From assembly GCF_000002865.3 (NCBI RefSeq), contig NW_001865083.1, positions 1 through 37,069 of the forward strand: DNA of 37,069 nt. The letters run 5' to 3'. Source of the DNA: Monosiga brevicollis MX1 (Eukaryota). Below, in pieces: positions 1-34,958 of this stretch. Below the pieces are notes generated by a model. The model worked only from the letters and a program-made list of their open reading frames with translations, made no database searches and was not told the origin of the DNA. Both the position numbers and the translations under genes were made by a program. Position 1 is the stretch's first letter, and every line of letters starts with the position of its first letter.

Positions 1-1516
1 TGCGATAAAAGTTGGGTGGTTTCCGTGAAGCACACGCAGCTGCAGATCGCGACGCATCGTCTCCAAACGGTACACCTTGCCCCCCACTTGCTGCCCCAGC
101 TTTCGAAACAGATGCTCCTGGTCCCCGATGCAAAGTGTGCCCGTCAACGCCACGCGTTTGATGTTGGCCCATCCGCCAGAACCCACACTGGCTGCGACTT
201 CGTCCATCACATCTCGGTAGCTGGCATCCGAGATGAGTGTGTGCGCCTCGTCCATCACCACGGTGCGGATGCGCTGAAAGCAGACCTTCCCGTGTAGCGA
301 TTCAGATCCCACGCGGACAAACATGTCGGTCGTAACGATGAGCACGTCCAGGCCATCTGCCACCTGTGTAGAGGGACCAAGCCATCGCTGGGCACTGTGA
401 CCTGCGCCTTGAAATCGCCGCAATAAATCGTTGGCCACGGCCACAAACGGCACAATCCACAGCACCGTACCGGCATGCGGGCGACAGCCCAGCTTGGGCA
501 GGGTACAAAATGTTTTACCCATGCCTGTCGGTGCAACAACAATCAGCCATCCATCCTCGGGCCGGTGCTGGTCAATGGCCGCAGCCAGGTCCAACTGTTC
601 TTGGCTGTTGAAACTGTGGCCCCAGGAGATGCTCGCCTGCTTGGCCAGCTGGGTCATGTAGGGTACGTCATGCTCGGCCCTCGTGTTCATGATGATACGC
701 CCGTTTGCTTCGGGCGAGAGGTCAGTCACCGGGTTCCAGCTGATGGGATAGCGAGCTTCCAATGCTTCTTGGTTCGCGGTCAACTCGGCCATGCTGCGCG
801 TGCGATCTAGTCCAAACAAAGCATGCCATTTTTTGCGAGGCCACTTGATGCATCAGTCGCGACGACATTTTGGTTTGCACATGGTCACTGGCTGTGCGCG
901 CATAGGCCCGCTGGGCCGTGTCCCCAGAGTGTTGAGGTTGAGTGTGGATCAGGCTGCCCAGGGCGCCGGTCGTCTCGGCCGACAGTCAGTTGATCACAAA
1001 CGTAGTCATCCAGAAGGTTGCGGCGTGTCGCCACGTGGCCACCCCCAGCTTTGGCCGATGCAGGTACGTGGTCATTTGTCGACGAAATGCCGCATAGATG
1101 GTGGCTGGGCTGACCATCGCCTGCAGGGGCGCAATATTGAAGAGGAGATGGCTGTTGTTGTAGTGGTTTCGAGCGTCCCGAACCTCGCGTCGCAATGTCA
1201 TCGTCTCGTCGTGGCTCATGTGGTCTTCATCCAGCTCGTCGTCGAGGAAATCTTCGTCGTCCTGCTCGGCATTGTGAAAGCCATTCTCGTCGTCGGGGGT
1301 TTTCAGCCCGCCCCGCTTTTGCAGCCAGCTGCTCAGCATGTGCTCCAGAGGCTTGCACAGCAGCAAATACATGAATATCAGCGTGCTGATTTCCTGGTCC
1401 ATGTATCGAAAGGTGTGCTGTTTGTTCAGAAGCAGCAGTTTTGGGTTTGCGAGGAAGCGGGTTGTGTCGAGAAGGCATTTTGAAAGAGGTTTGAGAGATA
1501 TGGTGGTGTCTCGAGG
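1..1516 (-). pseudogene. Telomere-linked RecQ-type (SF2 DEAH) helicase with upstream TLH-type domain; disrupted and running off the window edge
   Basis: Manual minus-strand translation of 828->1 (absent from the ORF track because it has no stop) gives Walker A VVAPTGMGKT (511-540), motif Ia LWIVPFVAVAND, motif II VVMDEAH (DEAH at 241-252), motif III ALTGT and ETMRRDLQLRV. The upstream frame (1516->829) reads RYMDQEISTLIFMYLLLCKP...LGVATWRHAATFW...QPQHSGDTAQRAYAR...VASQK/WHALFGL, resembling fungal TLH N-terminal regions as I recall them. There is an in-frame TGA at 986-988 and a 1-nt frameshift in the T6 run at 829-834. Confidence 0.85.
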
Positions 1517-1903
1517 TCAATTGAGCTAGCTGCGGTCGGCAAGCATTCACAGTGACCAGGCCAGATGCACTATTGGAAAGGCTCTACAGACGCACAGGGA
1601 AAGTGCAACCCGTGCCAGCCAGAGGTGTCACAACAAACAAACAAACAACAACGAAAAACCGTATACAAGCTTATCACACAAGGCTGTCTGCCAAGACATT
1701 GCAAAGTACACGAAGCACACGGGTCGACGCATGTGCCCCCTAGAGGGAAGGCACGCCTCAGTACGTCTAGGTGTGTATGTTAGTCAGGGGATGAAGTCAT
1801 GTCAGCTTCATAGGGGTTCCTGTGGTAAGACCCCTCGTCAATAACGCTGACCGTGTGCAAAAGCATCTGAACAAAGGATTTGCTGCTCACAACCAACTAG
1901 CAC

Positions 1904-4900
1904 CTAGTCCAGCACATCCTCATTGGCCGTGTAGTATACAACCAGCTCGGGATAAATTTGGGCATTGTCAAACACAATCACCTCATGGAATTCCCCAGAG
2001 GGTGTCGCGACGACCGAGTCATACCTGAAGAGAATTCAATGGCAAACGCAACAGTCGGATCAGAAGGTGGGCAAAGGCAACATGCAACAGATGGTCGATT
2101 TTGCCCAACGCACCGCTCGTTGTTGAGCGCATCGGGCAGGATCGGCGGGGCCAGGGCCCCCCTTCGTGGCGGCTCGTTCACAGAGGCCAGGCCAAGCAAA
2201 GCTCGCGTGATAATCAACATGCGCACCCCGTTGGATCCAGCTGTAGCGTACTGGTGACTCTAAAATCATGTGGCCGGCACAGTGTCAATACACTAGCGTT
2301 CAGAAGCTGAATTGACACAAAAACTCCACGTTACCACACCTTGCGGGGATCGTCGGCTAAATATACACCTCGGCCATACTTGTGGCCAGCATTGCTACCA
2401 GTAAAGCGAATATCTAGGCCCAGGCGCACGATCTTGTCGCGCAACCCTGGGAAGGGGCCGATGCCGTGGAGCAACAAACGCTCTTGACAGGATGTATTGC
2501 GAAGCAAAGCTGGAGAGCCCGAGAGCGCATCCCAGGCAGCCGTTTGGAGTTGATCATAGTGCTCCTGTCTTTTGATACGATGCAACATCTCGCGTCGCTT
2601 GGCACTGTAGCGCTCCCACAGCACGGGGTTTTGCACGCGCTCTACCCGTTGTACTGCGATATTGGCTGACCCCCACTCGTCAGTGCCCAGCTGCCTCAAA
2701 AGGTTAGCCACCTAGTCACACAATAAACGTATATTAGCAGGCTGTTGCAAAAGCGGTGCTTCATCGCCAACCAACGTACTTCTGGAATAAGCTCGGGCGC
2801 ATCACGCAAAACGTCAATGGCTGGCCCGACATGGGTGTCGACAAGTCGCTGAGCGTTTTGCACAATGCTGAGTAGGTGTGGACGTTGTTTTGGATCCGTT
2901 GCAAGCAAGGCGCGCGTTTCCTTGTACAATTTGCTCGTCGAATCGCACATCTGCAATGGAAAAAGGTACATGAGCTTAGAATGTGCTGGCCTTGCCTGAT
3001 CCAGCCGCACTGACCTCAGCAGCCAGATGCGGAAAGTTGCAGACAACATTTCCCGCTGGTAAAATCCAACTGCATTGATCCACAACCTCATCATCCCGTG
3101 GGTGAGCAGGTGGCACCGTTTGTGGGTACATGTAGGTGTTGTAGACAACACAGCCGAAGGAATAGGCATCTTGTGCTGGACGCGCCCCCACTCGGCCCCG
3201 GCCAAAAAGTACTTCGGGTGCCACATAGCCTGCCGTGCCCGACGATGCAGTGGCCGTGCATGGCAGCATGGTGGCTTCAGCAGCGGCTTTGGCAATGTCA
3301 AAGTCACCCAACCGCACGACGGGTTGATCCTCTGCGCCGTCCAGCATGACGTTGCTCAGCTTGACATCCCGATGCACCAGGCCCTTGCTATGCATAAACG
3401 CCAGGGCCGTGCGCAGCTGATTCATCATTTCCGAAATCACAGTTGAGGTGGCCATCTGGCGCGCCTTATCGAGCCACTGTCGCAGGTCTCCTTGCGAACA
3501 CCACGGCTGCACCAAATAGGCGCTGGGGTGGCCTTCCTTCATGTCCACAAGCGCGCCAAGGACCGGAACGATGTATGGGTGCTCAAGCTGGCGCATGGCG
3601 CGGAGCTCACGCAGAAATGTTCGGCACTGGTCCTGCTTATGTTGCCGAGCAAAAGCGTACTCCTTGACAGCCAAATCTTGTTCAGGACTCTCTGGAAGCG
3701 CGGCACGGGCCTTGTACACCTTGTGGTTTTGGTTGTCATGAAGGTCAAGCTGGCCCAGGCTGGAGAGCGTCAAACCTTGGTCTACTTCGGTCATGGCCTC
3801 CAAGATAAGGCTGGCTGGAAGGTCGGGACCAAGCACTGTGCGGAGCCGCGCTCCCAGCGTGCTTTGTTCAGGGTGCAGAAAGACCAGCAGGGCTGGGAAG
3901 TGCTGGTGCAACAGCTGGGCGAGCTCTGCGACGTGGTCCACTTGTGGCTGATTTGATACTTGTTGTCGTAAGGTATCCAGCCGTTCCTTCTTTTCTTGCA
4001 GCTTGTGTTCGAGGCTTGGACGCATATCCTCGGGCAAGAGCTGCAGTGCTGCGTTGACACCTTCAATCTCGGTCTGAAGTTTTGTCAGCTCTTCGTGGGC
4101 AGCCACCGATTCATCATCAACGTCTTGAGTCAAGCTGTTCACATGACTCATGCACGAGTCTAACACGGAGAGCGCCGTGGCCTGCCAGTCGATCATGTCT
4201 TGTAACTGCTGCAGCAGAGCTTGCGACTCGTGGTGTACAAACGCCAAGTACCAGTCCTGATGCTCGTAGTTTGGAGGTGGTTGCCACTGAGCAATTTGTT
4301 CGAGACCATTGTGCTCAAGCAGGCTCAGCTTCTCGTGAGCTTGGCACAGCTCCTCCCAGGCCTCGGGCAATGCCTCGGCTGGCGGCGGTGCACTTGCATC
4401 CACACATTGCGCGCATTGGCGAAGCGTCTCTACGCGATGAATTGTGTCGGTGGTTCCCGCTCTTGCCACAGCGCCCAGGGCATCGATCAAGGCCAACGCT
4501 AGGCACTTGAGGTTGCTGTTGGCGCTGGTGAGCAGCTCTTGACGCTTGGTTTCTACGTCGTGTAGCACGGCAATTTTGCCCAGGGCTGCCCCAAGGTTGG
4601 TGGGCGGCGTTTTGGGTGCGTTTGTCAGAGCGGTGGGTGGAGCGGGGCACGCTGCCAGCAGGGTCTGAAGCTCAAGAAGCACCGGCTTCAGCTTAAAACC
4701 AGCAGTGACATTGTGCATCTCTTGCAGCACTGATTTTAGACTGTCAGCGTTTGGGTCCAATTGCTTCAAGCGGCTGCTCAATGCTTCGGGTGCTTCCAGT
4801 GCTTGGTCGAGCGCGTTGAGGGCCTGGGTGGTTGTTGCCTGGAAGGCAACCCAGTCCATAGCAGGAAACTCTGATGGGGCTTCATCGATGGTCTTTTGGA

Positions 4901-7900
4901 TGTTAGCAACCGCCGCTGCAAGATTGGGATTTTCTTTGGCGGCACCGCTGATAAAGGCATCGAGGTGTGGTAGAGTATGGGTGGTGGTGCGCTCCGGCAG
5001 GAGTGGCCTGAGCCAGGTGTCCACCGCCACCACAACAGAGGCTGTGGTCTAAATAAGGATTGCGTGGTGCCATGCGTTGTGATGAGGTGGAATGAGGCTG
5101 TGTGGGTGATGGGGCAGTAAATGCATTTGGAATGCAAGAGGGGCAGGCCTACCTTGAGGGTCGGTGCAGGGCTGGGCAGGGGCGGCAGCCAGAGAAGACC
5201 CTTGTGAGCAGCAAAGACGAGCTTCAGCTTGTCGCCATACCCGTTGGCACATCCCAAATCGAGGGGTGATTCGCTTGCCTGAGAACATGGCCACAATCAA
5301 GCGATTGGAGCGTGTGAGATGGGCAGTGAAACGAGGGTTAAGTTGGGTGATGGGTGTTTGCTTTCTCATGTCAAAGGCAAGGCGACAATGCTTCAGAGTT
5401 CGCTGAAAACGCTAGACGCAAGAGCATTCGACGAACGGCTCAGACAGGTCGCAAGGGTTTGAAAGGAAGCGCGGTTGGAGAAAAAAAGTGGGGGCGCCGA
5501 GTGTGGCGGGGGTTAATTTGAAGAAATGGCCACCAAGAGCCGCTGGAGAGCGAGAGGCAGCGGCGTGGTGACAAGGAATGAAGAGGTACCCAGATTGAAG
5601 TCACAGCATCAGGAAAGGGAAGAGCGAGGCCAGCAGGCGGAAGAGACCAGCAGGGAACTGGGCGGAGTGCAAGGAGCACCGACAAAGCGTGGACGCAAAA
5701 CGGGGGAAGAAAAGGGATAGCGGGAAAGAAGACAAAGAGCCAGAGGTAGAACGGACGCGCACGGTGGGCAGGGTGTAGAGGAGCGAGGGTTTGGGCAAAG
5801 GCGACGAGCAGCGGGAGCAGGAGCAGCAACCAGAGGGGGTACAGGGAAGAGGGAAGTATTGTACTGACGTAGTTCTTGGTTTCAGTATCAACACCGTGCT
5901 CCAACAGCATCTCTACCACCTTGGCATGACCCTCAATGCAGGCCTTGTGCAGTGGTGTACAGCCATCCTGTAGGATGATGCATCAGCATGACGTACAGGT
6001 ACAACATCAACATCATTGTCATCTTCATCATGTGGTACAGGTGCATCAGGGGGAGGGGGAGGGGGAAAGTGGCAGGTACTGTTCTGACGTTGTCTTTGGC
6101 TTTGGCGTCAACACCGTGCTTCAACAGCATCTCCACCACCGTGACATGACCCTCAATGCAGGCCTTGTGCAGTGGTGTATAGCCACCCTGTGGGATGATC
6201 CATCAGCATTAGGTACATACAGGACATCATCATCATCATCATCGTCATCTTCATCATGTGGTACAGGTGCTTCAGGGGGAGGGGCGGTGGAAGTGGCAGG
6301 TACTGTTCTGACGTTGTCTTTGGCTTCGGCGTCAACATCGTGCTTCAACAGCATCTCTACCACCTTGACATGACCCTCAATGCAGGCCTTGTGCAGTGGT
6401 GTGTTGTCACCCTGTGGGATAATCCATCAGCATACAGGTACATCATCATAATCATCATCATCATCATCATTATCATCATGTGGTGCAGGTGTAGGAGGTA
6501 AGGGGGGGAAGAGGGAGGTTCTGTACTGACGTTGTTCTTGACTTTTGCATCAGCACCGTGCTTCAACAGCAGCTCCATCACCTTCACGTGGCCGCTAGCG
6601 AAGGCCGAGTGGAGTGGTGTACTGTCCTCCTGTGGGATAATGCATCAGCATTAGCAACGGCATCATCGTTATGAGGTATAGGTGCACCACCAAGGAGGAG
6701 CGAGGCGAAAAAAATAAGAATGGTCACTGAAAGCTGCTTGAGTGCGCGATGGCACGGGGTGGGGTGGTGCCCGGATTAAGTCACGACATCACCAAAAAAC
6801 AAGACGAGCAAGAAGCACCGACACAAAGTGTAAAAAAAAACAGGGGACGAGAAGGGGAAGTAGGAAAGGAGAAAAGAGCAGAATGCAAAGGCGGGAGGGG
6901 CAGGGCAAAGGCGACGAGCAGCGGGAGCAGGAGCAGCAGCCAAAGGGGGTGCAGGGAAGAGGGAGGTACTGTACGGACCTTGTTCTTGGTTTCAGCATCA
7001 ACACCGTGTTCCAACAGCATCTCCACCACCTCGACATGACCGCTAGCGCAGGCCAAGTGCATTGGTGTATCGCCACGCTGTGGGATGATGCATCAGCATG
7101 ACGTACAGGTACAGCATCATCACCATCATCATCACCATCATCATGGGGTACAGGTGCACCATCATAGGGGGGTAAAGGGAGGGACTGTACTGACGCTGTC
7201 CTTGGCTTCAGCATCAGCGTGCTTTAACAGCATCTCCACCTCCTCGACATGACCGCTAGCGCAGGCCTCCTGCAGTGGTGTACGGCCACCCTGTGGGGAG
7301 CATGCACCAGCATGACGTACAGGTACAACATCATTATCATCATCATCAATCATGTGGTACAGGTGCACCATCATAGGGGGGTAAAGAGGGGGAAAAGGGA
7401 GGTTCTGTACTGACGCTGTCCTTGGCTTCAGCATCAACACCGTGCTTCAACAGCACCTTCACCACCTTGACATGACCTTTTTTGCGGGCATAGTGCAGTG
7501 GTGTCCAGCCAGACTGTGGGATGATGCATCAACATGACGTAAAGGTACAGCATCATCATCAGCAGGTCTACCATCACAGATAGAGGAGGGGTAGTTAAAG
7601 GGGCAGGAGGTAGGTACTGTACTGACGTAGCCCTTAACTTCAGTATCAGCACCGTGCTTCAACAGCATCTCCACCACCTCGTCATGACCGTTAAAGCAGG
7701 CTCTGTGCAGTGGTGTACCGCCATACTGTGGGATGATGCAGACATGCAGTATAAGTCCCATGTTATACCATAACGTCACCCCATCCAGTGACATATTCAA
7801 AGTGTAACCAATATCACACGTCATTACATCAAACAGCATACATACCACATCACCTTTGTATTGGGCAGCATCTCGAATACGTTCATGGTCCCAGCTGGTC

Positions 7901-7971
7901 AACAGCTGCACCGCCAATAGGGGATCAGATGCGTTACACGCTTCGTGCAGCTGCCTTCCATCATCACTCAT
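1904..7971 (-). CDS. Ankyrin-repeat / coiled-coil / Ser-Thr protein kinase / PARP catalytic domain fusion protein (15 exons)
   Basis: Exons with GT-AG and compatible phases: 7846-7971 (alternative ATG at 8001), 7627-7725, 7415-7513, 7195-7290, 6979-7077, 6531-6629, 6313-6411, 6089-6187, 5869-5967, 5153-5278, 3015-5048, 2780-2950, 2340-2711, 2114-2259, 1904-2024. Ankyrin consensus G.TPLH.AC..GH..VVEMLLKHG.D...KD. Kinase motifs AVKE, RELRAMRQLEHPYIV, HRDVKLSNVML, DFD, GTAGYVAPE, DAYSFG, DPKQRP. PARP motifs VQNPVLWERY, LLHG, YGRGVYLADDPRKSHQY, RALLG, YDSV, HEVIVFDNAQIYPELVVYY. Confidence 0.88.
5869..7725 (-). repeat. Tandem array of eight exon+intron units, each exon encoding one 33-aa ankyrin repeat
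   Basis: Seven 99-bp exons and one 96-bp exon, all phase 0. The flanking introns are similar: donor GTCAG/GTCCG, (GAT)n tracts, acceptor CCCACAG/CCTACAG. Period is mostly ~210-225 bp. Confidence 0.93.
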
Positions 7972-8437
7972 GGTAACGGTATAACTCTCTCTATTCACCA
8001 TCCCGCTTGCTTGCTTCTCTATCCACCACCAATTTCATGAGCCCCCTCCAAGTACAACTCTCCGGACTGGGATCCAACAGGCGCGTGCCGTTTCCAAAAG
8101 GGCAGCCTGTCAGCGGGCGCTGCTCTCCTCTGCCTGATGCACCAAACGACCCACCTTGGACCAAATATCTTGTGTGACAGTTGCAAGGACAGGTGTACTT
8201 GGTTTCCAAAGGGCACGTTGTCGACTGCGAGGCGAGATCAGTGGTCTCACATTGATGAAAGCAAAGACAATAACCCTCTCAATCAAACGTTCGGGCGTCG
8301 CCGCAAGGCCCCGACCAGGAAAGTCCCGTACCAAGCACAAACGATCAGTCACCACACACACAAAGCAAGACACCTCAAGCAGCCCGCCGATGCCGATATC
8401 GAGACCGAAACCGCTGCCAAAAAAGGGCGACACGAAC

Positions 8438-8512
8438 AAGAAGAAGAAGAAGAAGAAGAAGAAGGCAAGAAGCCAAAGAGAGAGGGAAGCTTTAGTCAGA
8501 AGAAGAAAATGC

Positions 8513-8552
<40 letters not shown>
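8438..8552. repeat. (GAA)n and (CA)n microsatellites
   Basis: (GAA)n at 8438-8464 and (CA)n at 8514-8552, read directly. Confidence 0.95.
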
Positions 8553-8553
<1 letters not shown>

Positions 8554-9025
8554 GCATGCTTACACCTGCAAACAACAATCATAAAAGCAAATTTTCAAGC
8601 GGCGTCAAGCTTAAACGTTCAACGTATCCTGCCCCTTCCTTTGCCTGCCAATGACAGCTCGACCATTACAAGCAGCTTCCAAAAGCACCACAAGACTGGG
8701 GCGTGTACTGCCTTGTTGCCAGCCATGGCATTACGAGCCCGTTGGCTAACTGCCCCTCCGCATAACGCTCGCAGCCATTCCTGACGGCGAGCGAGCCAGC
8801 TTTAAGCTCTTGACAACAAGCGTCCAAATGGCTCTTTTCGACGCTTCATATGGCCACTGCGGCTAAAAGTCTTTGACCCCTTCTGTGCTGCCAGAAGACC
8901 CGAAGCAATGGGCAGCAACAGCAACCATCAGGCATCAATTAGGGGGTGCAAACAAAAACACAAAACGGGAATGTGCAGCTCTGCTGCCAAGCCGGCAATT
9001 GGGGGGTCATGCATCCACGCGCGGC

Positions 9026-10360
9026 TTAGAGGCTGTGATCGAGGGTAAAGCCCCAGAGGTCTTCGAGGTGGGTCCGGTCTTCCAAGAGGCTGGCCAGGGC
9101 GTAGTGGAGGCCCGGGGCGCCGTTGCAAGAGGCGTGGGTGAGGTGCAGGGCGGCGTCACGCATGCGGAGGCGTTGCTGGTGACGGGCGTGGGCGGGTTGA
9201 TTGGCGAGGTGGTCGAGGAAGCGTTGGAAGCGGGGGGTGTTGGTGTCGTGTAGAAAGGTTTCGACCCAGCCGTGGTAGTCGACGTGGCGAATGTAGGGAG
9301 CAGGGCGAAGGGCGTTGGTGACAATGGGGATGCAGCCGACGCGCAGGGCATCGAAGAAGCGGGTGTCGCAGTTGGTGTCACCTCGGGGGGTGGGGCAGTA
9401 TTCGCATTGGGCGTAGAGGAGGGCGGATTCATCGGTGCGCAGGGAGGTGGCTGCAAGGTTGGCACGATCGGAGCGGCAGTTGCCCTGGACAAACGAGTCG
9501 TTGCGTTGGAGGAGGGCGTCGGCGACCATGGTGCGTTCGGCGTTGAGGAGGGTGCCTTGGAAGCAGAAGCGGTAGGGGCGGGGCCAGGCGGGATCAAAGG
9601 GGGCGGTGAGAATGGGAAAGTCGACGGGAAACTGGGGCAGGACGACGTGGTTGGCCAGGATGGGCTGGAGGTGCGGATCCCGGAGTTCGTGGGACTGCAT
9701 GTTCTTAATGTCCGGGGAGAGAAACTTGATGTGGGGGTAGTCGGCGAGGAGCTGGCGCATGGGGGCGCGGAGGTTGGTGCGGGCGGGAAAGGGGCGACGG
9801 CTGACGGTGAAAAACTGAAGGTGGGGAAAGCGGGCCCGTAGGGGGTCAAGGGCAAGGCGGGCAGCACGAGCAAAGTCCAGGTCGGGATTTTTGGCGCAGC
9901 GAGCGTCCTGGCAGTCGGCAGGAAAGGGAAAAAGGACGACATCGGCGTGGGCCGGGTCGGTGACGAGGGTGCGGGTAACATTGGCGCGAATCTGGTCATA
10001 GACTGGAAATTCGGCGCACTCGGCGCACCGAGGGCCTAGGGCTGATTCTAGCTCGGCATCGGCCACGTAGACTCTTGGCACGCGGACGCGCGGGTGCACC
10101 CGAGTGCAGTTGGGCGGACCCAGGCGGGCGAGCCCCGCTTGTCCATCGGGGCCGGGCTCGGAGAGGGAGCGCACATGCGCGTGCCGGCGCCATGCCGGGG
10201 TGCAGGTGAGGCGGTCATAGACAAATCGGATCGTTTCCAGCGGCGAACTGCCCTGGACCCAGGGACCAAGCGCAAACGCGACGAAGAGGAGCAGAAGCAG
10301 GAGCAAGGACAAGGATTTCAAAGCCCAGGCCGGCGAAGGCCGCCACCACGCCCGCCGCAT
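9026..10360 (-). CDS. Exostosin-family (GT47) glycosyltransferase, type II membrane protein, intronless
   Basis: ATG at 10360 (MRRAWW) precedes a hydrophobic anchor LSLLLLLLLFVAFAL. GT47 motifs: VYVAD, TDPAHADVVLFP, RPYRFCFQG, YCPTPRGDTNCDTRFFDALRVGCIPIV. Stop at 9026-9028. Confidence 0.88.
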   Translation of the reverse strand: MRRAWWRPSPAWALKSLSLLLLLLLFVAFALGPWVQGSSPLETIRFVYDRLTCTPAWRRHAHVRSLSEPGPDGQAGLARLGPPNCTRVHPRVRVPRVYVADAELESALGPRCAECAEFPVYDQIRANVTRTLVTDPAHADVVLFPFPADCQDARCAKNPDLDFARAARLALDPLRARFPHLQFFTVSRRPFPARTNLRAPMRQLLADYPHIKFLSPDIKNMQSHELRDPHLQPILANHVVLPQFPVDFPILTAPFDPAWPRPYRFCFQGTLLNAERTMVADALLQRNDSFVQGNCRSDRANLAATSLRTDESALLYAQCEYCPTPRGDTNCDTRFFDALRVGCIPIVTNALRPAPYIRHVDYHGWVETFLHDTNTPRFQRFLDHLANQPAHARHQQRLRMRDAALHLTHASCNGAPGLHYALASLLEDRTHLEDLWGFTLDHSL

Positions 10361-10529
10361 CTCAAGCGTGATGTGATGCCGTGAAAGGGGCGGGGAAGGG
10401 CGGGAATATATCAGCACGCCGTCCAATACCAGGCGCTACTACCCCGTCCGCCGCGCAGCCTGGTCTCGAGTCTGCCATTCACAGCGTCCGACGCTCAAAT
10501 ATTAAAAAATTAAAAATTAAAAATTTGAA

Positions 10530-10708: not shown

Positions 10709-11418
10709 AACTTTCAATGGTCTGTGTCCCTCTCGGTTTTCATTACTACATGTGGTAATTACGTCGTTTCTTGGTGCCTTTGTCAAACATGATTCTCGTC
10801 TTTCTCTGTTTGACTTCTTTTCTCACTACATGTAGTACTTACAGTTAACGTATCTCGTTGCCTCACACACACACTCACACACATCCAAGTTAAAAATAGC
10901 AAATCATGCCAATTTAAGCACACACGCCCAGTTGCGCCACATCTTGATGTTCATCACAGCTCTAAGATTTATGCTTTCAACCTCTAATTCTCTGAACCTT
11001 GATACACTCTCCTTCCTCTCTCTGCTTTCGCTTTTCTTTCCCCTTATACCAAAACCCCCTCTCAGACTCCCTCTCTATGATCATCCCCATTTGCTCCTAC
11101 CCTCTCAAAGTCACACGAGCAGCGCTCTTTTCTCTCACGCTGCCTCGCCGTGTGCGCGGCGGCCAGCTGACTCACATTTATCTCCGGCTTTTTCCTTCTG
11201 GATCTCGTCCTTTGCAAGCACCTTTCTCTTCTGCTTGGTCTGCGGTTGTTGTCAGGTCAGCTCCCTTGTTCCCTTGTTCCATGCATACCTTCCCTCTTAC
11301 CCCTTGCCTGCCCTTCTCACGTCCCAACCTGACCGTCCAATTCCAGCTAGCGCCTGGCTGCTCCCTGAAAACCTTCAACGCCTCCTCGCCTCAGCGCGCT
11401 CCAACACCAACAGACGAC

Positions 11419-13721
11419 ATGTGGGAACCGGTTTCAGATGGGCATTGGGTGCAAGAGCCAGAGTCCGACCCAGAATCCGAAACCAGCGATGCAGGGGAGG
11501 ACAGAGAAAAAGACCCAGCAAACACTCGCCCAACCGACCAGCACCCCCAGTCCACCGCGCCCGCCCTTAGCGCCCAACTGTATGCCACGTCGACTGCCGA
11601 CACGTTGATATGCGCGCTGGCTGCCAGCGCGGCCTCGGCTCGCGACACGCCTTTACACGTGTGCTTGGTGCTGGACCGCTCCGCCTCAATGTCCGTGCCC
11701 GTCACTGCACGAGATCGCGAGCATGCCATTGTCGAGTACGACATTACCGTCATGGACATGGTCAAGTATGCCGCCCGCGTGGCCCTCCACTGCCTTGCTC
11801 CGGGCGACCGCATCTCCGTCGTCTCCTTTGCTGATCAAGCTCGCATCGACGTACCCCCTACCACCCTCCCGAGCACCCCCACTACCACCACCACCACCAC
11901 CGGCCCCGCCGCCCAAGGCAACTCCGAACTGGCGGCGGTTGTCGCTGGGATCGACCAGATTGCCGCCGAGGGCCGCACCAACCTGTGGGCTGGCCTGCGC
12001 ACCGCCCTCACCCTCCTCCGCGAGCACCATGTGCCTGGAACCCACAACCTCTGCATTGCCCTCACGGATGGCGTGCCCAATTGCCACCCGGCCCTGGGCT
12101 ATGTCGAAGCCCAACGCGCCTTTCAAAACGACCCCGACTTTCGCTACGTTCTCAACACCATTCCATTTGGCTACGAAGACATGGACGCCAAGCTCCTTCA
12201 CCAGCTAGCCCTGCAAGGCGGTGGCATCATGGTCAACGTACCCGACTGCGGCATGGTCGGCACCGTGCTCACCAACATGCTGGCCAATGCCAAGACCACC
12301 ACCCATTGCGACCTGGCCCTGCATGACCCCCACCGCCTCCTCAACCGCCGACTCCCTTGCCGGGCCGATGTCGCATATGACCGCAAGCTTGGGCGCCTCG
12401 CTCTCGGTACCCTCCATGCCCAGCAGCCCCGCCACCTGGCCCTCGCCCTGGATCCTAGCCAGGCTGCCGCCCTTGCGCCTCTGACGACGAGGACGAGAGC
12501 GAGGACCTTGAGGATTTTGAGGACGTCGACCATCACACCGTTCTCAAGCTAGATCTGTCGCACCTTTTGACCCTGCGCGCCTTCAACGTACGCACGGGCC
12601 AGGTGGAAGAGGTGCCCGTGCCCCTTGCTGACCTTGAACTGCCCGAGTCCGAGGAAGCGCGGACGCTGCTGCGCGATGCTGTGTGTGCCGAGGTGCGCCA
12701 GCTCAACGTGCTGATGGCTGCGCGCCGCAATCACACGGCCAGTCAACAGCTTGCTGCTTTTCTGGAAGACCACGACGTACTGGACCTGGACCCCGAGCTG
12801 TTTATCGACCTGAACGAGCAGGTGCGCCAGGCCCTGGCCCCGAATGCTTACCGCCGCTGGGGTCATACCTACCTTCCCTCCCTTGTGATGGCCTACACCG
12901 CCCACCTTCGGCACAACTTTAAGGACCCTGGCGTGCAACATTTTGGCGGCTCCCGTTTTCGTCAGCTGGCTGCCCAGATGTCCGACATTTTCGACAGCCT
13001 CCCGGTGCCCCAACCTTCACTGCACACTGGACGCCGCCTCCCTTCCCTGGCCGTGCTCAACGATTGCCTGGGCGGCTGCTACACCGGCGACAGCCTTGTT
13101 ACCCTGGCCGACGGTACCGTCTGCCGTTGCGATGCCGTTCGGCCCGGCTTTTGTTTGGCCGGCGGGGCTCGCGTGGCGTACGTCATGGCCACGGCGTGCG
13201 TTTCCGGGCGCGAAGACCTCTGCCTTGTGGCCCCAGGGCTGAGCTTGACTCCCTGGCACCCCATTTGCCGCGAGAACGAGTGGTTTTTCCCCGCCGATCG
13301 CTATCCCATCCTGCGCAGTCAACGCTGCGCTTTCAAGTATAGCTTTATTCTCGATGCTCCACCGTCGCGCGGGGCCGTGGTTGTGGTCGGTGGCGTCTCC
13401 ACTGTGGCGCTCGGTGGTGCCGACCAAGCGCGAGCAGCCTTGCCCGCGGCTCGCGACCCCAACGCCGTGCTGGAACACGCCTTTTTTGGCACCACCGCCG
13501 TCCGCCGCCGCGTGGCCGAGCTTGCCCCGCTCTCCAGCAGCCGGGTTGCTGGCCGCTACCTCGTGCTTCAACCGCACGCCTTTATCCGCCCGACTCCCTC
13601 GGCTCCCATCTCGGACATTGACGCCCGCGCCGTTGTGCCCCTATGCATAACCCTCAACCCGGCTTGGCTTTTCAACTTTTCACCGCGGGCTGTCTCCCAG
13701 GCAGCTGTACCTTGCGCATAA
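11419..13721 (+). CDS. vWA-Vwaint-Hint (Vint-type) autoprocessing protein, interrupted by an apparent frameshift at ~12459-12480
   Basis: The first frame from ATG 11419 has vWA MIDAS CLVLDRSASM, ISVVSF, GRTNLWAGL and ALTDGVPN. The second frame (to 13721) has Vwaint YRRWGHTYLPSL...NFKDPGVQHFGG...FDSLPVPQPS, the Hint start GG|CYTGDSLVTLADG (Cys 13077-13079), block B LTPWHPI, YSFILD and the Vint tail HAFFGT. Confidence 0.87.
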
Positions 13722-14025: not shown

Positions 14026-14235
14026 TCTCCTCTCATAATCTCTCTCTCTCTAAATCTCTCCCCTCATGCTCTCTAAATCTCTCTCTCTGAATCCCTCTCT
14101 GAATCCCTCTCTGAATCTCTTTGCTCTCTCTTTGTCCCTTTCTCTCTCTCTTGGAATCTCTCTTTCTGTTGATCCCTCTTTCTGTTGATCCCTTTCTCTC
14201 TTTTTTTCATCACACGTACACTCGCTCTTCTCAAA

Positions 14236-14281
<46 letters not shown>

Positions 14282-14385
14282 AACTTTCTCTCTCTCTCTC
14301 CCTCTCTCCCTCTTCTCTCAACTTTCCTCTCTCTCTCTCACCTTTTCCTCTCTCTTCTCTCACGTTTTCCCTCTCTTCTCTCAAC

Positions 14386-14482
<97 letters not shown>

Positions 14483-14521
14483 TATTAAATTTTTCCTCTC
14501 TCTCTCTCTCTTCTCTCTCTC
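14026..14521. repeat. Long CT-rich microsatellite (pure (CT)n at ~14391-14480) immediately upstream of VPS8
   Basis: Direct reading. Confidence 0.95.
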
Positions 14522-14549
14522 AAAACGAAAACAGCTTCAGTGGAGGAGG

Positions 14550-17500
14550 ATGAGTGAGCGGCGCCGAGGCAACGGCAGCCGGGGCAGTGGATCAGAGGGG
14601 ATGGGAGGCAGTGGTGCTGGCATGGAGCGCGCTGGTTCAAATAGTGCCTCTACTCCTACTCGGGGGAGTGGTGGTGCAGATGATGATGAGGTAGATCCCC
14701 TTGTCTGCGCTGCCCCCTTGCGCTGCTCTCCAACCCCTTGCTACCTCTTTCGTCTCCTCCGCCTCCGCCGCCTCCTCCTCCGCCGCGCCTCTGCCTCCTC
14801 CGCGCTGTGCCCCCGCTGTTCTCACACCAAGATTGTGGCTTTTGGCGTACCCCGTGTAGTTTTTGCGAGAAGCCAAGCGGGCGGGCCATCGAACCAGCGC
14901 CACCCACGCCCCAGCTCTGGCCGCCATCCTGGCAGAGGAAGACGACGAGGTCGACCCTTTTCTCGCCGAACTGGCCGACAAGGGCGCTCAGCCCGCGGCC
15001 GCGCCTCACGTAACCAAAGCCGCACCCGAGCCTTCGGCCTCCACCGCCATGCTCGGGGCTGCGCCCCTTCAACAAAAGGCCCAGACAGCGCCCGTGGCAT
15101 CCCCGGCCAGCTCCACCCGCTCGAGCCGCGCCCCAACCAAGGGCGCCGCCTCTCCCGCCACACCCGCAAGCCGCAGCCGAAGCAACACTCAAACTTCCAC
15201 CGCCAGCTCTGCAGCTGGCAAGATCGTCAACAACGACAGCGTCAAGTCCTTGTGCGTGCCCCCGGCCTCCTTTTTTTTTTTTTTGCTCCGTCGTGTGCCC
15301 TCTCTCCTTTTCTTCCCACACACTTTGCCAGCCCCCACCTGACGTTTTTAAGACCCACCCCTTTTTCTCCCCAGGCGCCTCAAGCATGGACGCATTCTCC
15401 GCTCCCAGGCCCTCAGCCAGCTTTCTAGCAATCTGGCTGCCGGTCACATCAAGAGCGAATCTGGACGGCCGACAGCCCTGGTCAGCCACCGTCCCACCAT
15501 CACCTAGGCTTCCTTTGCCCCGCCCCAATCACGACGATTCATTCTCCCGCCCTCCCTCGCTACGGCAGGCCATTGGAGGCAAGAGTACTGTTGCCGTTGG
15601 CACTGCCTTTGGCCTGGTTCTTATCTATGAGCAACAGGTCTGCTCCCCGCGATCTCTGGCCGGCGCCCTGTCAGCCCTTTTCGACCCGCCACCTCACGTT
15701 TGTGGCGGCATACAGACCCTGCAACGCATGCTTGGCAACCTCGAGTCGACGATGCGCTCCGCTGTCACCGCCATCGATCTCGACGTGGAAGAATCTCGCG
15801 TCATCTGCGGTTACGAGAATGGTGTCATTGTTCGCTGGGACCTCGTCTCTGGCAAGCCACTCAACAACATTGAAAAGGTTTACAACAGCGGTACGTCATC
15901 CGTCCCGCTACCTTCTCTAGACCAGCTTGCCGTCCGTCAGCACACCATCTCCACGTGATCTTCGTCTCACCTCTTTGTATCCTTTCCCAACCCCAACCCC
16001 AACCCTGTCTTTCCATCATTGCGAAACAGCGGTCACGGCTCTGGCCTTGACACCAGATCGTCGCCTCGCCGTGTCGCTGAGCGCCGAGGGCTCGGCCTAT
16101 TCCCATGGGTTCAAAAAAGTCATGGGTGTCCGTGTTGTCGACAATCACTGCATTCTGTCTTCCGAGTACGTTCTGGCATTGCCCCACCTGCCAAGTGTAG
16201 CGCCCGCCCCCCTCATCCTACCGCGCATGTCCCCATATCCCGCAACAGTCAAGTCAAATGCTGCACACTTGCGGCTCTCAAGGTCCCTGAAGGCATGAGC
16301 TCGCCCGAAAACGTGATTGTTGCTCTCGGCTCGGCCAGCAAGGTAGGTTGTCGTCAGCCTCATCCGAGTGTAAGCCCGCCCTCCATCATTTTTTTACCCC
16401 TTTTCTTTGCGCAGGTCTTCGTTGTACGCCTCAAACCCTCCATGCATGTCCTGGCCACGCTGACCGCGAGCAACGATGATGGCATGGGCCTCGCCCTCTT
16501 GGACTGGTCTGTTCCGCGTCCCCCTATACGTGATGGGGGAAGCTTGCTTGCCCCAGCGTTCACGACACAGCTCCTCACCCGCCCATCTCCTTGCCCGACT
16601 ATCTGGCCATTCTCGCAGGACCTGGACCGAGGTGCGCTTTGACAACCGGACGCAAGTGCAGCCCATTCTCACCTACTCGTGGGGTCGCAAGGTCAATCTC
16701 CTCAATGTGGGCATGACGTCCACAACCCCGGGGGACAGTGATCTGGCCTGTGTCCCACTGGGTGCTGTTCATAACAACCGTGTCGGCCTGACCATGGTTC
16801 GATGGCTCAACAGCCGCATCATTCTAGCCATGGACCGCAATGTACGCCTTTTTGCTCGCACGCGCATTTTTGTGCACACAATGCCACTCTTCTCCCTTCT
16901 CTGGCACACCAAAAAGAAATATAATAAAGCGCAGGGTTTGATCATTCACTGGCTTGCCTTGCATGTATCCAGGAGCACGTGCTCGTCATTGACGCACGTG
17001 TAGCCCAAGTCGTTGACGTGCTGGACATGGCACCAGCCAAACTGGTCTTCAACCGACACTTTGCCAAGGTGCGTGGCCAGCCTCCACAACGGCACTTTGG
17101 CGATTCATCTGATCCAGCTTATGCTTCTGTATTGCTGCTGTCTCCTAAACTCTAGCGCCACATGCAAGAAGGCATGCGCGACTACACCTCGGCCCTGGCT
17201 GCTGGCTCTGAAGTGCTGATGGCTCTTGGCAGCGACGCCGTGCGCGTCATTCGTGTGGCTACGTACGAACCACACACGCACCCACTGCGCACTGCGCTGG
17301 TTCTTTGGGCTGGCAAAGAGAAGCAACTCACACGTGTCCGCATCTGTATGCCCGCGTTTATCCCGCGTAGCTGGACGGATCGTCTCTTGTACCTGGTCAA
17401 TAGCAAGGCGTTCCGCGCCGCCATTGAACTGGGTCTTGCCTTTTTCAACAACAAGGCCCTTGTGCCATATGGCCTGAGCTCTGACGATGAAGTCCGCAAA

Positions 17501-20500
17501 TCTCGCGTGCGCGATCAGATGCGCCACATCCTCGAAGCGTACACAGACGCTTGCCTCCAGGCTCAGTACGCCACGTGCTCGTGACTGCGGCCCCCCAGCA
17601 ATGAAACACAGCCAAACTCACACTAACCTCGCGCTATACTATAGGCCCGAGCCAGCTGCCCCGCCTGCCCAACCATCAGCCACGCCAGCAGAACCCAAGG
17701 CAGAGCCAAAGCAGCCCGACCAGGCCCTGCTTGTTCGTCGCAAGTTTTTTCGACAAATGTCACGTGTGCTCACGCAAGCCTCCTTCCAGCTGGGTCTCAC
17801 GTACGCTGCCACTCCATGCCACCCTGACCAAGGCATTCTTTTGTGCATCCCAATACCCACATCAAACTCACCGATCGTGGCTCTCACCCCCGCCGTCTCA
17901 GTGATTTTCTCATGAGCACTTTGTTCGACAAGTTGCTTGAGCACCCAACCGCATTGGCTTGTTTCCTGGAGGAGCTGCGCCCGTTGATTCTGAATGACAC
18001 CATCACAAGTTTGCCGCCCGTGGTCATGCAGGCCTTTGTTGCCCACTTTAAAGTTCGTCATTACCTCAACTCTCCTGCCTAGGCGTCTTAGTGGGGGTTC
18101 ATGTTTTGCACAGGCGACTGATGCCACACAAATGCCTTGTCATCAGAAACTCAACAAGCCAAAGATTGTGGAGGAGTGCATTTTGCACATGGACGTTTCA
18201 ACCATGGATATTAACGAGGTACAAACCCTCCCGTGCGTGCAGTCCTCTGGCCCTGCCTTGCAACTTTTCTCAACACGCGCTCTCACCGGTTCTCTCTCGG
18301 ACATTCAGCTCACCAAGCTGTGCTGGAGCTACCGCCTGTTCGATGCCATGATCTACATTTACAACAATGGGCTTGACGATTACATCTTCCCGCTGACTGA
18401 GTTTATGTCGGTATGTTCTTCATACGCGGAGCCCGACTGCCCAGCGCTACTGCGCGTAATGTCTTGTGCACAGGCTACCCGCCCCAGCTGACCTGGTGAA
18501 TATTCCCTTCCATGTTTAAATCAGCGGCTGCGTGCCAGCGTCAAGAGCCGCGCAAGCACCATGGGTAGTGGTGATGTGGCTGACCTCCTCAGCCCGCAGG
18601 ATCAGACTCTTGGCAACAAGCTCCTTGTATACTTGAGCTATTGTCTAGCTGGCCGTGCTTACCCGCGCGGTGAACTTCCTCCGTACGTCGTGTATCTTGA
18701 TGTTTGGGCCGCATACCGTCTGTCTGGCCCTTCCGTGTATGGCTTGATTTTCAAGCTCTCTCTTTCTCTTTCTCTCCTCTCTCTCCTCTCTTTCACTCTT
18801 ATTTTGTGGCGCCATCTCTGGCTCGTGTACGACAAATTTGGCCCCTTCAGACACAAGGTCAACAAGGTCCGCGTGAACATGTACCGCCGCTTTTTATTGC
18901 TTCAACACGATCCATCTGGTGCCATCAAGGAGACGTACCCCAACTTGCGCACCCTCCTGCGCTTCAATACGCGAGAAGTGCTCAACGTGCTCTCGCTAGC
19001 ATTTGACGATTTGCAAGTGATCTTGGAACAAGGCGATGAAGAGGCTGTCAACGGACTGCCTTCCCCGCAGCATGTCATCGATACGCTTGAGCACGTCATG
19101 AGTAAGGACCCGGCTTCTTTCAACGCCCAGCAGGTCTGTCATTATTGAGGCCCAGCTCTGCTTCATCCATCAGTGGGGCAAAGGAGGATATGACGACATT
19201 TTTCTGGCTCCTTGCTGGTATGCCAATTCCAAGCCAAAACCGTCCTCTCACCCGTTGCTATTTCTTGGCGCTCTGCTTCGCAATTTTTCAGCTTTGCAAT
19301 TTGTACACCTTTATTGCTCGCCAGTTTGCTCGCGGACGAGGCGTGTCACGGGTATGTTCCTGACTCTCGTTATCTTTTTTGGGATGGATGCCCCACCGCG
19401 AGGCCACTCATGTAACATCCAACCCTGACCCACGGCGCATGCAGCTTCAAGCCGATCGACTCTTGTCCGTCGTCGAGCGACTCACAGATACGCGCGACGA
19501 GACGCAGAAGGATGAACGTGAACAGGCACTTCTAGAGCTACTCTCGGCAACGGGGCTCGAGGCGTTTCGCAAAGACCAGCTTTTGGTCCAGGCCGAGCAG
19601 GCGCACTTTTGGGAAGTGTGCAAGGTTGTGCTTGAAAGCCAACGCCGTTTTGCCGATGTCATTCCCTGCCTGCTCAATGATCAGATTAAGAAGCAGCAAG
19701 CGTTTCGCTACGCGCATCAAAAGTTGCGCATCATCTCCGGCCAAGAGCGCCAGGACATGGTGGATGCTGTCATCCGCCTCTTTCCCAAGCTGGTGGCCAC
19801 CTCAGCCCGTGAGGCCGCTCGGCTTGTGATTGAGGACTTTGAGCCCATCTTACCCCAAGTAAGGGCCCGCCCGTCGACACAGAGGCTACCCTTGTGCCAC
19901 ATCCCGTCCGGGGCTAACGCGATTTGAGCTGTGTCCCTTAGCTGATGCGTCTTCTTCAAAAGACGCCAAAGTTGCACTACGCTTTTTTGCTTCACTACAG
20001 CAAAGCCAAGGTTAGACCATCCTTGAAATTTGCGTGTCCTTTGTCTGTTCCGAGCATTTCCTTTGACCGCATTTCCTTTACCATCCCTGGCTTGCTTGTC
20101 CATTCTCACTCAATGTTGTTTGTTTGCACGCTCTTGGTCTCTTCAGAGCGAAGAAGAGGAAGACAAAACCAGTCGCGAAGTTATAGAGCAGCTCATTGAG
20201 CTCATGTGTCAGGTGTGATAACTTGCTGCCAAGGCGATGCGCCTCAACAGCCCCTAAGCTAACACCTTTATGTTGGCGGTCTGCATCTAGCTGGAGCCTG
20301 CCCGTGTGTACAAGTTTCTGCAAACCACCAACAACTATCGCGTCGACGACGTACTTGCACTATGCAAGCAGTATCGCCTGCCCGATGCCACGTGCTGGTT
20401 GTACGAGGTTAAGGAACAGTACACAGAGGCGTTTCAACTCATCAAGGCTGTACGTGGCATTCTACGAACGCTCGCTCAACGTTTGACACAAGAATCTGGC

Positions 20501-31536: not shown

Positions 31537-31577
31537 ATCCGCGTATGCGTGCGCACTCGAGCGTCAAAAAGAAAAAT

Positions 31578-33338: not shown

Positions 33339-33930
33339 CTAACCGAGACCATCCTTGACGCCACGGATGCGACGCGCCAGCTGCAATCAAGAAATGAACC
33401 CCCCACAGATGAGACGACGACGCATCAAAAGAAAAGGCATGGATTTGCCCAATCTGGACACCACTCGAGCAAAAAAAAAAAAAACCGCACCTGAATGTCC
33501 CTGACCATGAGCGTCACACGCTTGGCATGGATGGCGCAAAGATTGCCGTCCTCCAAGAGGCGAACAATGTAGGCTTCGGCAGCCTCTTGCAGTGCCTCAA
33601 TGGCCTTGGCTTGCCACCGGAGCGGGGCAGTGTGATAAAAGTCTTGGGCCACCTCGCGCACAACGCGCGCAAAGGGCAGTTTGCGGATCAATAGGTTTGT
33701 TGACTTTTGGTATCGCCGAATCTCACGCAGGGCCACAGTCCCTGGCCGAAACCGGTGACGGGTTTGGCGGGTCCCACCACCCGCGGTGCGCGCCGTGGAG
33801 GCATTGCGTTGTGCTGCAATGGCAAATCCAACCGAGGGCATGAGTTCCATCAAAGAGGCACACAGGGCGAGGGTCAGCGCGTAAAGCAAAACGCACATGA
33901 AGAAGATGCTGTTGCTTTTGTACGCGCCAT
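33339..33930 (-). CDS. CENPA: Centromeric histone H3 variant (CENP-A/CenH3), 132 aa, 3 exons
   Basis: Exons 33897-33930, 33491-33813 and 33339-33380 give [132 protein letters not shown]. CenH3 hallmarks are present: Q68->A, F84->W, T107->G, a longer loop 1, and divergent N- and C-tails. Confidence 0.88.
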
Positions 33931-34958
33931 AGTGTTGACACAGATCAGAGCCTGGACGGCTACCCTGGACAGCTCACAACTGGGGCAGCTCAAACTGGCT
34001 CAAAATTGGGGCAGCTAAAATTCCGGGGCACCGAAAAACCGGAGATATCCAGCACGTTCCACGCAAAAGGGTTCAGCACCCCAGCTGCTGACAGTGTGAA
34101 CCGGAGATGGCCGCAAGCATCGTGAGTCACACGGGCCAAGTGCGCATGAGGTTGCGAGCTGAGATGAAAAAGCGCGACATACCGATCGAGTTGAGACGAA
34201 CAAAGGGTTCAGACACGCTCAATGTCGAACGAAATCGATCAGGCTGGCATAAAAGGCGCGGGCTGGTGTATGGCAGAGAACCAGACTGAGCTTGAATAGA
34301 AGTAGTATACGTATAGAACCAGCTCGTCTGGTCACGGCAATTGTCGCCGCAAAAGCCTCCAACGCCTGCGAATTGGCTCGGTCCGCTGGCACTTTGGGAG
34401 ACGCAGCTGCTGTTGGCACAACTCGCTGTTGCCACACTCAAGTGAAGAGAGAGCACCAACGATGATAGCGGCGGCAACCAAGCCAGAGCCACCTTGCTTA
34501 ACCGTCCAAGAACGAGTCCAGATGACCCGCTACAAGACAGATAACGAGCGCACGCCGCAGCCCTCTGGGGGTCGTGAGGAGTGAGAGAGAGAGAGAGGGC
34601 GGCTCTGTGTGTGTGTGTGTCTTGAGCAGCGCCAGCGCCGTTATGATAAAAAGGCGCCCGTTACTCGTTGCTTGCAAGCGACAAATGACGCTCTGTTACC
34701 ACATGTCATACATTCTTGGGGTAAGAGTGTGAGAACCCTTACACTTGTGATTTTGCTTGAAAGCAGATGCATCAGCGCAGTGCGGCAGTTGGAAAAACAA
34801 TATCTTGTTACAACATGAAAAAAAAAATGCGAACTCTCTCCGAGTCTGACCTCACGCTCCCTGGACCCATTTGGATCTCGCCCCGTGCCTTCTTGTCTGA
34901 TGACCCTCATACTGTGATCCACACCTGCCTCTCGCTTGTATCAATGATAATTCTCTAT

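What the first reader, a model, noticed from the sequence alone, without database searches (positions are those of the whole stretch)
1..8001. Candidate subtelomeric cassette: YR-like/helicase gene plus co-oriented ANK-kinase-PARP gene
Seen: the two genes are adjacent on the same strand, with only ~350-390 bp between the PARP stop (1904) and the helicase remnant. Gene content switches to unrelated genes after the microsatellites at ~8.4-8.6 kb. Inference: a repeated unit in which a recombinase/helicase spreads or shuffles a variable sensor-effector cargo among chromosome ends.
Basis: inference. Interest (0 to 1): 0.7.

Follow-up and report, generated by a model that had tools for sequence, protein, structure and literature searches.

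The report
Broken recombinase-helicase beside ankyrin-kinase-PARP gene
In a choanoflagellate, an unbroken multicopy ankyrin-kinase-PARP gene sits next to a broken piece of a 'telomere-linked helicase' gene whose unexplained middle domain is predicted to be a DNA cut-and-rejoin enzyme; the two are likely repeated neighbours at chromosome ends rather than one mobile package.

Summary
The two genes are real, adjacent and co-oriented. All close relatives are Monosiga brevicollis genes. 7971-1904 (minus) is an open 15-exon, 1294-aa ankyrin/helical/kinase/PARP model with 25 paralog clusters. 1429-1 is a telomere-linked RecQ helicase (TLH) fragment: front half missing, one stop, one frameshift. The 'YR-like' call holds. 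An intact paralog's TLH domain folds like Xer/Cre recombinases (best Z 10.7), and R-K-R-H-Y are near-invariant in 83 homologs. This copy lacks the first R and K. The pairing recurs (4 other fused gene models), but the cassette reading does not fit. Junctions differ, TLH copies are about 96% identical whatever their neighbour while linked kinase-PARP copies are 77-85%, linked copies form no clade, and many copies lie in tandem or far from a TLH model. Best reading: a chromosome-end mosaic. No telomere is visible and no genome was held. TLH at Monosiga telomeres is published (Robertson 2009, not readable here). My searches found no paper calling the TLH domain a recombinase, but this scan noted that earlier on other DNA, and noted this kinase-PARP family in the same genome.

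The parts
1..834 (-). RecQ-type helicase part of the TLH fragment (Walker A and DEAH present); runs off the window end
   Evidence: Pfam DEAD E 3.5e-13; 95-97% identical over about 278 aa to P0002, P0090, P0091, P0102, P0104, P0247, P0262
829..834 (-). One-base frameshift in a homopolymer run between the recombinase-like part and the helicase
   Evidence: Frame change; the majority contig in runs X1, X3 and X8 lacks the extra base
835..1429 (-). C-terminal half of the TLH domain (tyrosine-recombinase fold in an intact paralog). Keeps the second Arg (1028-1030), His (929-931) and Tyr (902-904); has a premature TGA at 986-988; lacks box-I Arg and Lys
   Evidence: 95-97% identical to group-1 TLH models; fold and conservation; stop absent from majority contigs of 4 of 4 runs
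1429..1430 (.). 5' truncation point of the TLH fragment
   Evidence: Protein homology to full-length TLH ends here; contigs of X1 and X3 leave the window here and continue into the missing TLH sequence
1430..1903 (.). 474-bp spacer, including a short high-copy repeat at about 1504-1570
   Evidence: Contig depth in the thousands or more in three runs at 1486-1595, with many different flanks; no Rfam match
1904..2711 (-). PARP catalytic domain, exons 2711-2340, 2259-2114, 2024-1904, with the H-Y-E triad
   Evidence: closest solved sequences PARP14/15/10, then tankyrase-2
2780..3790 (-). Ser/Thr-type protein kinase (LAVK, HRD, DFD in place of DFG), in exon 11 and exon 2950-2780
   Evidence: Pfam Pkinase E 3.7e-35; motifs
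3791..5048 (-). About 420-aa helical/coiled region specific to the family
   Evidence: All 19 hits are M. brevicollis models; no usable ESM Atlas hit
5153..7971 (-). Start exon, eight one-repeat ankyrin exons (seven of 99 bp, one of 96 bp) duplicated with their introns, and a capping exon
   Evidence: Pfam Ank
7972..8359 (-). Upstream non-coding stretch weakly shared with two other loci; likely inner edge of the duplicated block
   Evidence: tblastn of mis-predicted N-termini of P0002 (to 8359, E 1.4e-4) and P0106 (to 8248, E 4.4e-5); weak
8434..8552 (.). (GAA)n and (AC)n microsatellites; unrelated genes lie beyond

Best explanation
This is a likely chromosome-end mosaic of two separately evolving repeated genes: an unbroken ankyrin-kinase-PARP gene, and downstream of it a truncated, twice-broken fragment of a telomere-linked helicase whose middle domain is predicted to be a tyrosine recombinase. 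Inferred mechanism: intact TLH copies elsewhere (zinc fingers, recombinase, RecQ helicase) likely cut and rejoin DNA near chromosome ends and so keep their own copies nearly identical, whatever lies upstream. The kinase-PARP family is older. It expands by tandem duplication and ankyrin-exon duplication, and is sometimes copied along with a chromosome end by ordinary homology-driven exchange. This copy cannot recombine DNA itself. Shown: gene structures, breaks, multicopy state, recurring adjacency, unequal divergence, fold match, conserved residues. Inferred: telomeric position, recombinase activity, self-propagation, any immune role.
For: Open 1294-aa model with 14 of 14 GT..AG introns, and exon ends matched by paralog models. 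26 kinase-PARP-family models on 17 scaffolds and 27 TLH-type models on 25 scaffolds, 7 scaffolds shared. Against P0002 the window's helicase is 96.8% identical but the kinase-PARP helical part only 79.1%; against P0262, 96.0% and 77.0%. TLH copies with other neighbours are just as close. TLH upstream neighbours vary: PARP end (P0002, P0003, P0004), a cut-off helical region before a full-length TLH (P0262), ankyrin only (P0089, P0092), an unrelated protein (P0100), another TLH (P0088, P0089). 5 linked copies need 5 label changes on the helical-region tree (0 of 200 bootstrap trees give 1), and 4 need 4 on the kinase tree. 12 of 17 differences from the majority TLH contig are synonymous against 24% expected, P 6e-5. 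R532 83/83, K566 83/83, R705 83/83, H738 80/83, Y747 82/83. All 7 VIA rows at Z 8 or more are tyrosine recombinases.
Against: No genome was held, so linkage rests on fused gene models and accession order, and unannotated TLH remnants beside other copies would be missed. All 5 TLH-linked copies fall in one supported 11-row clade of 21 (95/91), so linkage may be old and shared. Three loci (window, P0002, P0004) resume TLH within about 15 codons of one another, which may be a shared junction. Foldseek gave no hit at E 0.001 or better (XerA at rank 18, E 1.1), and Pfam gave no recombinase family. The His of the H-x-x-R motif is not conserved, and the box-I Glu (82/83 in homologs) is Val in Monosiga group 1. 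The formal one-clade test did not finish. No activity was measured.
Confidence: 0.6

Rival explanations
1. Passive spread: TLH is a host telomere-rescue helicase whose recombinase-fold domain only binds DNA (as in Ndc10). Both genes are spread among ends by break-induced replication and ectopic recombination, which homogenise the outermost gene most.
For: Identity rising towards the presumed end (about 79% helical region, 85% kinase, 96% TLH) fits. TLH genes are induced in telomere crisis in S. pombe (PMC1635262, passages; bioRxiv 2024.02.27.582403, Discussion). H-x-x-R His missing. Ndc10 is among the fold matches (Z 5.4).
Against: The nucleophile Tyr and both Arg are near-invariant in 83 homologs, most of them about 20% identical to the query. 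A Monosiga subfamily (P0093-P0095) has lost recombinase residues and Walker A together, as non-autonomous elements do.
Confidence: 0.25
2. One reading: the recombinase-helicase mobilises itself with an ANK-kinase-PARP cargo as one unit, Starship-like, and this copy is a non-autonomous derivative.
For: Same order and strand in 4 other models; similar TLH re-entry point at three loci; linked copies confined to one 11-row clade; weak shared upstream sequence to about 8359.
Against: Different junctions (P0262 has a full TLH after a cut-off cargo; P0004 keeps TLH residues upstream of the window's break). 17-19 points more divergence in cargo than in TLH at the same pairs of loci. No clade. Tandem copies, and copies 23-107 accession steps from a TLH model. 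The recombinase lies behind the cargo, whereas Starship captains are always first (PMC10104507, passages). No terminal inverted or direct repeat pair of note in 1-9000.
Confidence: 0.1
3. Assembly artefact: the junction, stop and frameshift come from collapsing or mis-joining repeated sequence.
For: The frameshift is in a homopolymer. The majority contigs lack both breaks. None of the listed contig pieces bridges 1429/1430 (142 pieces not shown).
Against: The same gene order occurs in other models. The window differs from the majority at 17 sites in a synonymous-biased pattern that error would not give. Contigs drop rare variants.
Confidence: 0.05

Closest known systems
Telomere-linked RecQ helicases (TLH) of M. 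brevicollis (Robertson 2009, Chromosome Res 17:873; not held) and of fungi (Magnaporthe TLH1, S. pombe tlh1, Fusarium)
   Same: Multicopy family with zinc fingers/OrsD, TLH domain and RecQ helicase in full-length paralogs; many copies broken, as in M. oryzae (4 of 11 full-length). That Robertson's abstract also lists ankyrin and Ser/Thr kinase genes at most telomeres is recalled, not seen.
   Different: This copy lacks the N-terminal half. The passages I read leave the TLH domain without a function, and 'recombinase' occurs 0 times in both texts; here it matches the tyrosine-recombinase fold.
Tyrosine recombinases XerA/XerD/XerH, Cre, IntI, lambda Int; eukaryotic Crypton, Ndc10 and DUF3435 relatives
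   Same: Core-binding plus catalytic domain in the predicted model; R..K..R..H-x8-Y conserved; ESM leads to DUF3435, DUF3504 and NDC10_II at 0.82-0.84, leads only.
   Different: Fused to a RecQ helicase; acidic insert; no His in H-x-x-R; no target site or activity known.
Starships (PMC10104507)
   Same: A eukaryotic tyrosine recombinase next to variable genes.
   Different: Recombinase is downstream of the other gene and fused to a helicase; no DUF3435 Pfam hit; no defined termini found.
Tankyrase (ANK-SAM-PARP) and PARP10/14/15-type catalytic domains
   Same: Ankyrin repeats plus a PARP domain with H-Y-E. ANK+PARP in M. brevicollis is noted in PMC4245714 (passages).
   Different: No SAM hit; a 420-aa helical region and a kinase lie between; 25 paralog clusters, found only in this species.

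Membership tests
Telomere-linked helicase (TLH) | RecQ-type helicase domain | tested here: met
   Pfam DEAD; a profile of the family alignment ranks RecQ5, RecQ, BLM, RecQ1 and WRN first
Telomere-linked helicase (TLH) | TLH domain upstream of the helicase | tested here: met
   C-terminal half present, 95-97% identical to M. brevicollis paralogs; N-terminal half missing in this copy
Telomere-linked helicase (TLH) | N-terminal C2H2 zinc fingers | tested here: not met
   Absent from this truncated copy; present weakly in full-length paralogs (zf-C2H2/OrsD). The copy is a TLH fragment, not a whole member
Telomere-linked helicase (TLH) | Position next to a telomere | not testable with these tools
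   No genome held; no telomere array in the window
Tyrosine recombinase (intact paralog P0092) | Catalytic-domain fold with core-binding domain | tested here: met
   AF2 pLDDT 81, pTM 0.79; VIA XerA Z 10.7, rmsd 3.4, 165 aligned; Cre Z 8.3, rmsd 5.1, 253 aligned; Foldseek inconclusive
Tyrosine recombinase (intact paralog P0092) | Catalytic Arg, Lys, Arg, His/Trp and Tyr | tested here: met
   83/83, 83/83, 83/83, 80/83, 82/83; all five in 4 of 23 Monosiga models scanned
Tyrosine recombinase (intact paralog P0092) | His of the H-x-x-R motif | tested here: not met
   Ala in Monosiga, no conserved His in homologs
Tyrosine recombinase (intact paralog P0092) | DNA cleavage and strand exchange | not testable with these tools
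   Needs biochemistry
Tyrosine recombinase (this copy) | Complete active site in an open frame | tested here: not met
   Box-I Arg and Lys lost by truncation; stop before His and Tyr
Starship-type cargo element | Recombinase as first gene of the element | tested here: not met
   Recombinase lies downstream of the kinase-PARP gene; rule from PMC10104507
Starship-type cargo element | DUF3435 captain | tested here: inconclusive
   No Pfam hit; ESM lead at 0.84 only
Starship-type cargo element | Shared termini with direct repeats and empty sites | tested here: inconclusive
   Junctions differ among protein models; no paralog DNA, and the outer end lies outside the window
PARP (ARTD) | H-Y-E triad | tested here: met
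   Present in the window model and in 14 of 25 paralog models
Tankyrase | ANK-SAM-PARP layout | tested here: not met
   A helical region and a kinase, no SAM hit

The most novel reading that the evidence does not exclude
TLH genes are a telomere-targeted class of tyrosine-recombinase/RecQ mobile elements shared by fungi and choanoflagellates, and in Monosiga their recombination at chromosome ends also drives the copying and reshuffling of flanking ankyrin-kinase-PARP candidate immune receptors.
Probability: 0.15. Interest if true: 0.85.

Novelty: new variant of a known kind. Interest (0 to 1): 0.5.

Why it matters
The locus itself is an ordinary decayed piece of a published kind of chromosome end. 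What matters is the TLH domain, described as function-unknown in the papers I could read. A recombinase fold with a conserved nucleophile makes 'why do these helicase genes sit at so many chromosome ends' testable with one point mutant. If the cargo reading held, it would be a telomeric counterpart of Starships in the closest relatives of animals, diversifying a candidate immune gene family. My data make that the less likely reading.

Tried and rejected
Whole-genome self-BLAST: no genome held. Robertson 2009: not held. JGI metagenome scan: 2 of 37 stretches passed, both weak matches (33-34%) to the acidic insert, rejected as chance. Viral contigs: none. Pfam gave no recombinase family, and Foldseek gave no significant row on the 647-aa model. 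phmmer of the window helicase piece against the PDB gave 0 hits at E 0.001; only the profile found RecQ. ESM Atlas: leads under 0.9 for the TLH part, nothing for the helical region. Repeat at 1504-1570: no Rfam match, no tRNA, no second copy in the window. Contig depth (414 against 10.6 in X1) is only a hint of tens of TLH copies; the tool says it is no copy number. Reads were laid only on 1-1623, so expression and splicing of the kinase-PARP gene are untested. The one-clade likelihood test did not finish. Literature searches for a recombinase reading of TLH: 0; 0; 13 listed, none on TLH by title or abstract start; 2; 1, passages unrelated; 4, listing only. Subscription papers and bioRxiv supplements were not visible, so absence from print is not shown.

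Full report
Source. No genome was held for the window. Every close relative of both genes that carries a name is a Monosiga brevicollis MX1 gene model, so I treat the window as M. brevicollis or a very close relative (inference). The window holds no telomere array (2 TTAGGG, 2 CCCTAA, all isolated).

The upstream gene. On the minus strand, 15 exons from 7971 to 1904 join to a 1294-aa frame with no internal stop, and 14 of 14 introns are GT..AG. Exon ends agree with paralog models. It holds eight one-repeat ankyrin exons duplicated together with their introns, a 420-aa helical region, a kinase (LAVK, HRD, DFD) and a PARP domain with H-Y-E. The PARP exon's closest solved sequences are PARP14/15/10, then tankyrase-2. 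The top 6 of 68 hits and all 19 hits are M. brevicollis paralogs; the other 62 match the kinase only. Identities to the window are mostly 52-82% (helical), 78-86% (kinase) and 56-78% (PARP), with one distant member, P0006, at 35-40%. 14 of 25 models keep H-Y-E. Several are tandem, for example five on one 227-kb scaffold and the adjacent pair P0069/P0070.

The downstream gene. Homology to TLH models starts sharply near 1430. Contigs of runs X1 and X3 leave the window at 1429 and continue into the missing TLH sequence. Full-length paralogs have several hundred residues more upstream: zinc fingers/OrsD, a helical region and the first half of the TLH domain. The fragment has a TGA at 986-988 and an extra base at 829-834. 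The majority contigs lack the stop in 4 of 4 runs and the extra base in the 3 runs that cover it. Of 17 differences from X1's majority contig over 944 bases, 12 are synonymous against 24% expected (P 6e-5, no transition correction). The family is therefore under purifying selection, and this copy likely died recently. The true gap from the PARP stop is 474 bp.

Is it YR-like? I folded residues 135-781 of intact paralog P0092 with 78 homologs (pLDDT 81). VIA-align against 48,161 chains gave 7 rows at Z 8 or more, all tyrosine recombinases (XerA Z 10.7, rmsd 3.4, 165 aligned; XerD 8.9; XerH 8.7; Cre 8.3). The first 28 rows are recombinases, type IB topoisomerases or relatives such as Ndc10 (that Ndc10, SroF and MrpR share the fold is recalled). 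The best clearly unrelated row is Z 4.8. Foldseek was inconclusive and Pfam silent. The representative search gave 177 hits, 150 listed. Of 157 proteins with a profile match I kept the 83 that are not Monosiga and span the whole domain, dropping Monosiga and partial rows. In these R532, R549, K566 and R705 are 83/83, H738 80/83, Y747 82/83 and E535 82/83. The rows were found by likeness to the query, which inflates conservation, but most are only about 20% identical. The 7 rows I looked up carry no names, so their fungal origin is not shown by my calls. The His of H-x-x-R is missing, and Monosiga group 1 has Val for E535. All five residues occur in 4 of 23 Monosiga models scanned; others are partial models. 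A second subfamily (P0093-P0095, about 72% identical) has lost recombinase residues and Walker A together. The window copy lacks R532 and K566 and stops before His and Tyr, so it cannot be an active recombinase.

Is it one cassette? For: automatic gene models that wrongly fuse neighbours run from the kinase-PARP family into TLH at four other loci (P0002, P0003, P0004, P0262), and from ankyrins into TLH at two (P0089, P0092). Three loci resume TLH within about 15 codons of one another. All five linked copies lie in one supported clade of 11 of 21 rows. Weakly shared upstream sequence reaches about 8359, near the microsatellites. Against: P0262 has a full-length TLH after a cut-off helical region, P0004 keeps TLH residues upstream of the window's break, and P0100, P0088 and P0089 have other neighbours. 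At the same pairs of loci the helicase is 96-97% identical and the helical region 77-79%; P0002 against P0262 gives 98.6% and 84.4%. Linked copies need 5 of 5 changes on the helical tree and 4 of 4 on the kinase tree, no fewer than shuffled labels; the likelihood test did not finish, and 'unlinked' only means no fused model was seen. 7 of 17 kinase-PARP scaffolds carry a TLH model I found. On four of them, six kinase-PARP models lie 23-107 UniProt accession steps from it (that accession order follows position is an inference, calibrated on model numbers).

Mechanism. Most likely the TLH unit spreads and is homogenised on its own near chromosome ends, probably using its recombinase and helicase (inferred). 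The older kinase-PARP family grows by tandem and exon duplication and is sometimes carried by ordinary end-to-end exchange (inferred). Passive spread of both (0.25) and a true cargo element (0.1) remain open. The ANK-kinase-PARP layout suggests binding coupled to phosphorylation and ADP-ribosylation, but no function was tested.

Literature. bioRxiv 2024.02.27.582403 (passages and Discussion) lists TLH in fungi and M. brevicollis, cites Robertson 2009, and leaves TLH function undetermined. PMC1635262 (passages): TLH at 11 Magnaporthe ends, 4 full-length. PMC4245714 (passages): ANK+PARP in M. brevicollis. PMC10104507 (passages): Starship captains are always first. PMC4054682, PMC9940879 and PMC13451438 (passages) added nothing on this point. 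Robertson 2009 was not held; its content on ankyrin and kinase genes at telomeres is recalled. Searches found no paper calling the TLH domain a recombinase, within an open-access library. Earlier unchecked notes of this scan say the same of fungal and diatom TLHs and describe this kinase-PARP family elsewhere in this genome. I had written my reading before seeing them and tested the fold and residues here.

Verdict. Observation partly confirmed, interpretation partly supported. The arrangement is a published kind. The recombinase fold of the TLH domain is the real, testable addition, and the cargo-cassette idea is unlikely. Interest 0.5.

Noticed in passing
window 1504-1570: Short repeat with very high contig depth (up to about 5,900 in X1 and 88,700 in X8) and many different flanks; not in Rfam, not a tRNA. 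Could be a SINE-like element, an LTR piece or an abundant small RNA.
   Followed up: partly
P0093-P0095 (other M. brevicollis loci): A second TLH subfamily that lost recombinase residues and Walker A together yet persists on at least three scaffolds; a third, about 33% identical subfamily (P0105, P0107, P0266, front of P0088/P0089) keeps the His and Tyr and sits head-to-tail before group-1 TLH.
   Followed up: partly
window 3295-3305 and paralogs: The kinase has DFD in place of DFG in the window and in all 20 of 25 paralog models where the motif was matched.
   Followed up: no
window 5869-7725: One ankyrin repeat per exon, duplicated with its intron; seven of eight donors read GTCAG.
   Followed up: partly
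window 10996-13721 (+): VWA plus Vwaint/Vint (Hint-domain) gene.
   Followed up: no
window 9026-10435 (-), 14115-19927 (+), 23222-31563 (-), 33425-33973 (-), 35011-36174 (-): GT47 glycosyltransferase, VPS8, open frames with Ig-like, ephrin-receptor-like and JmjC hits, a core histone and a nitronate monooxygenase.
   Followed up: no
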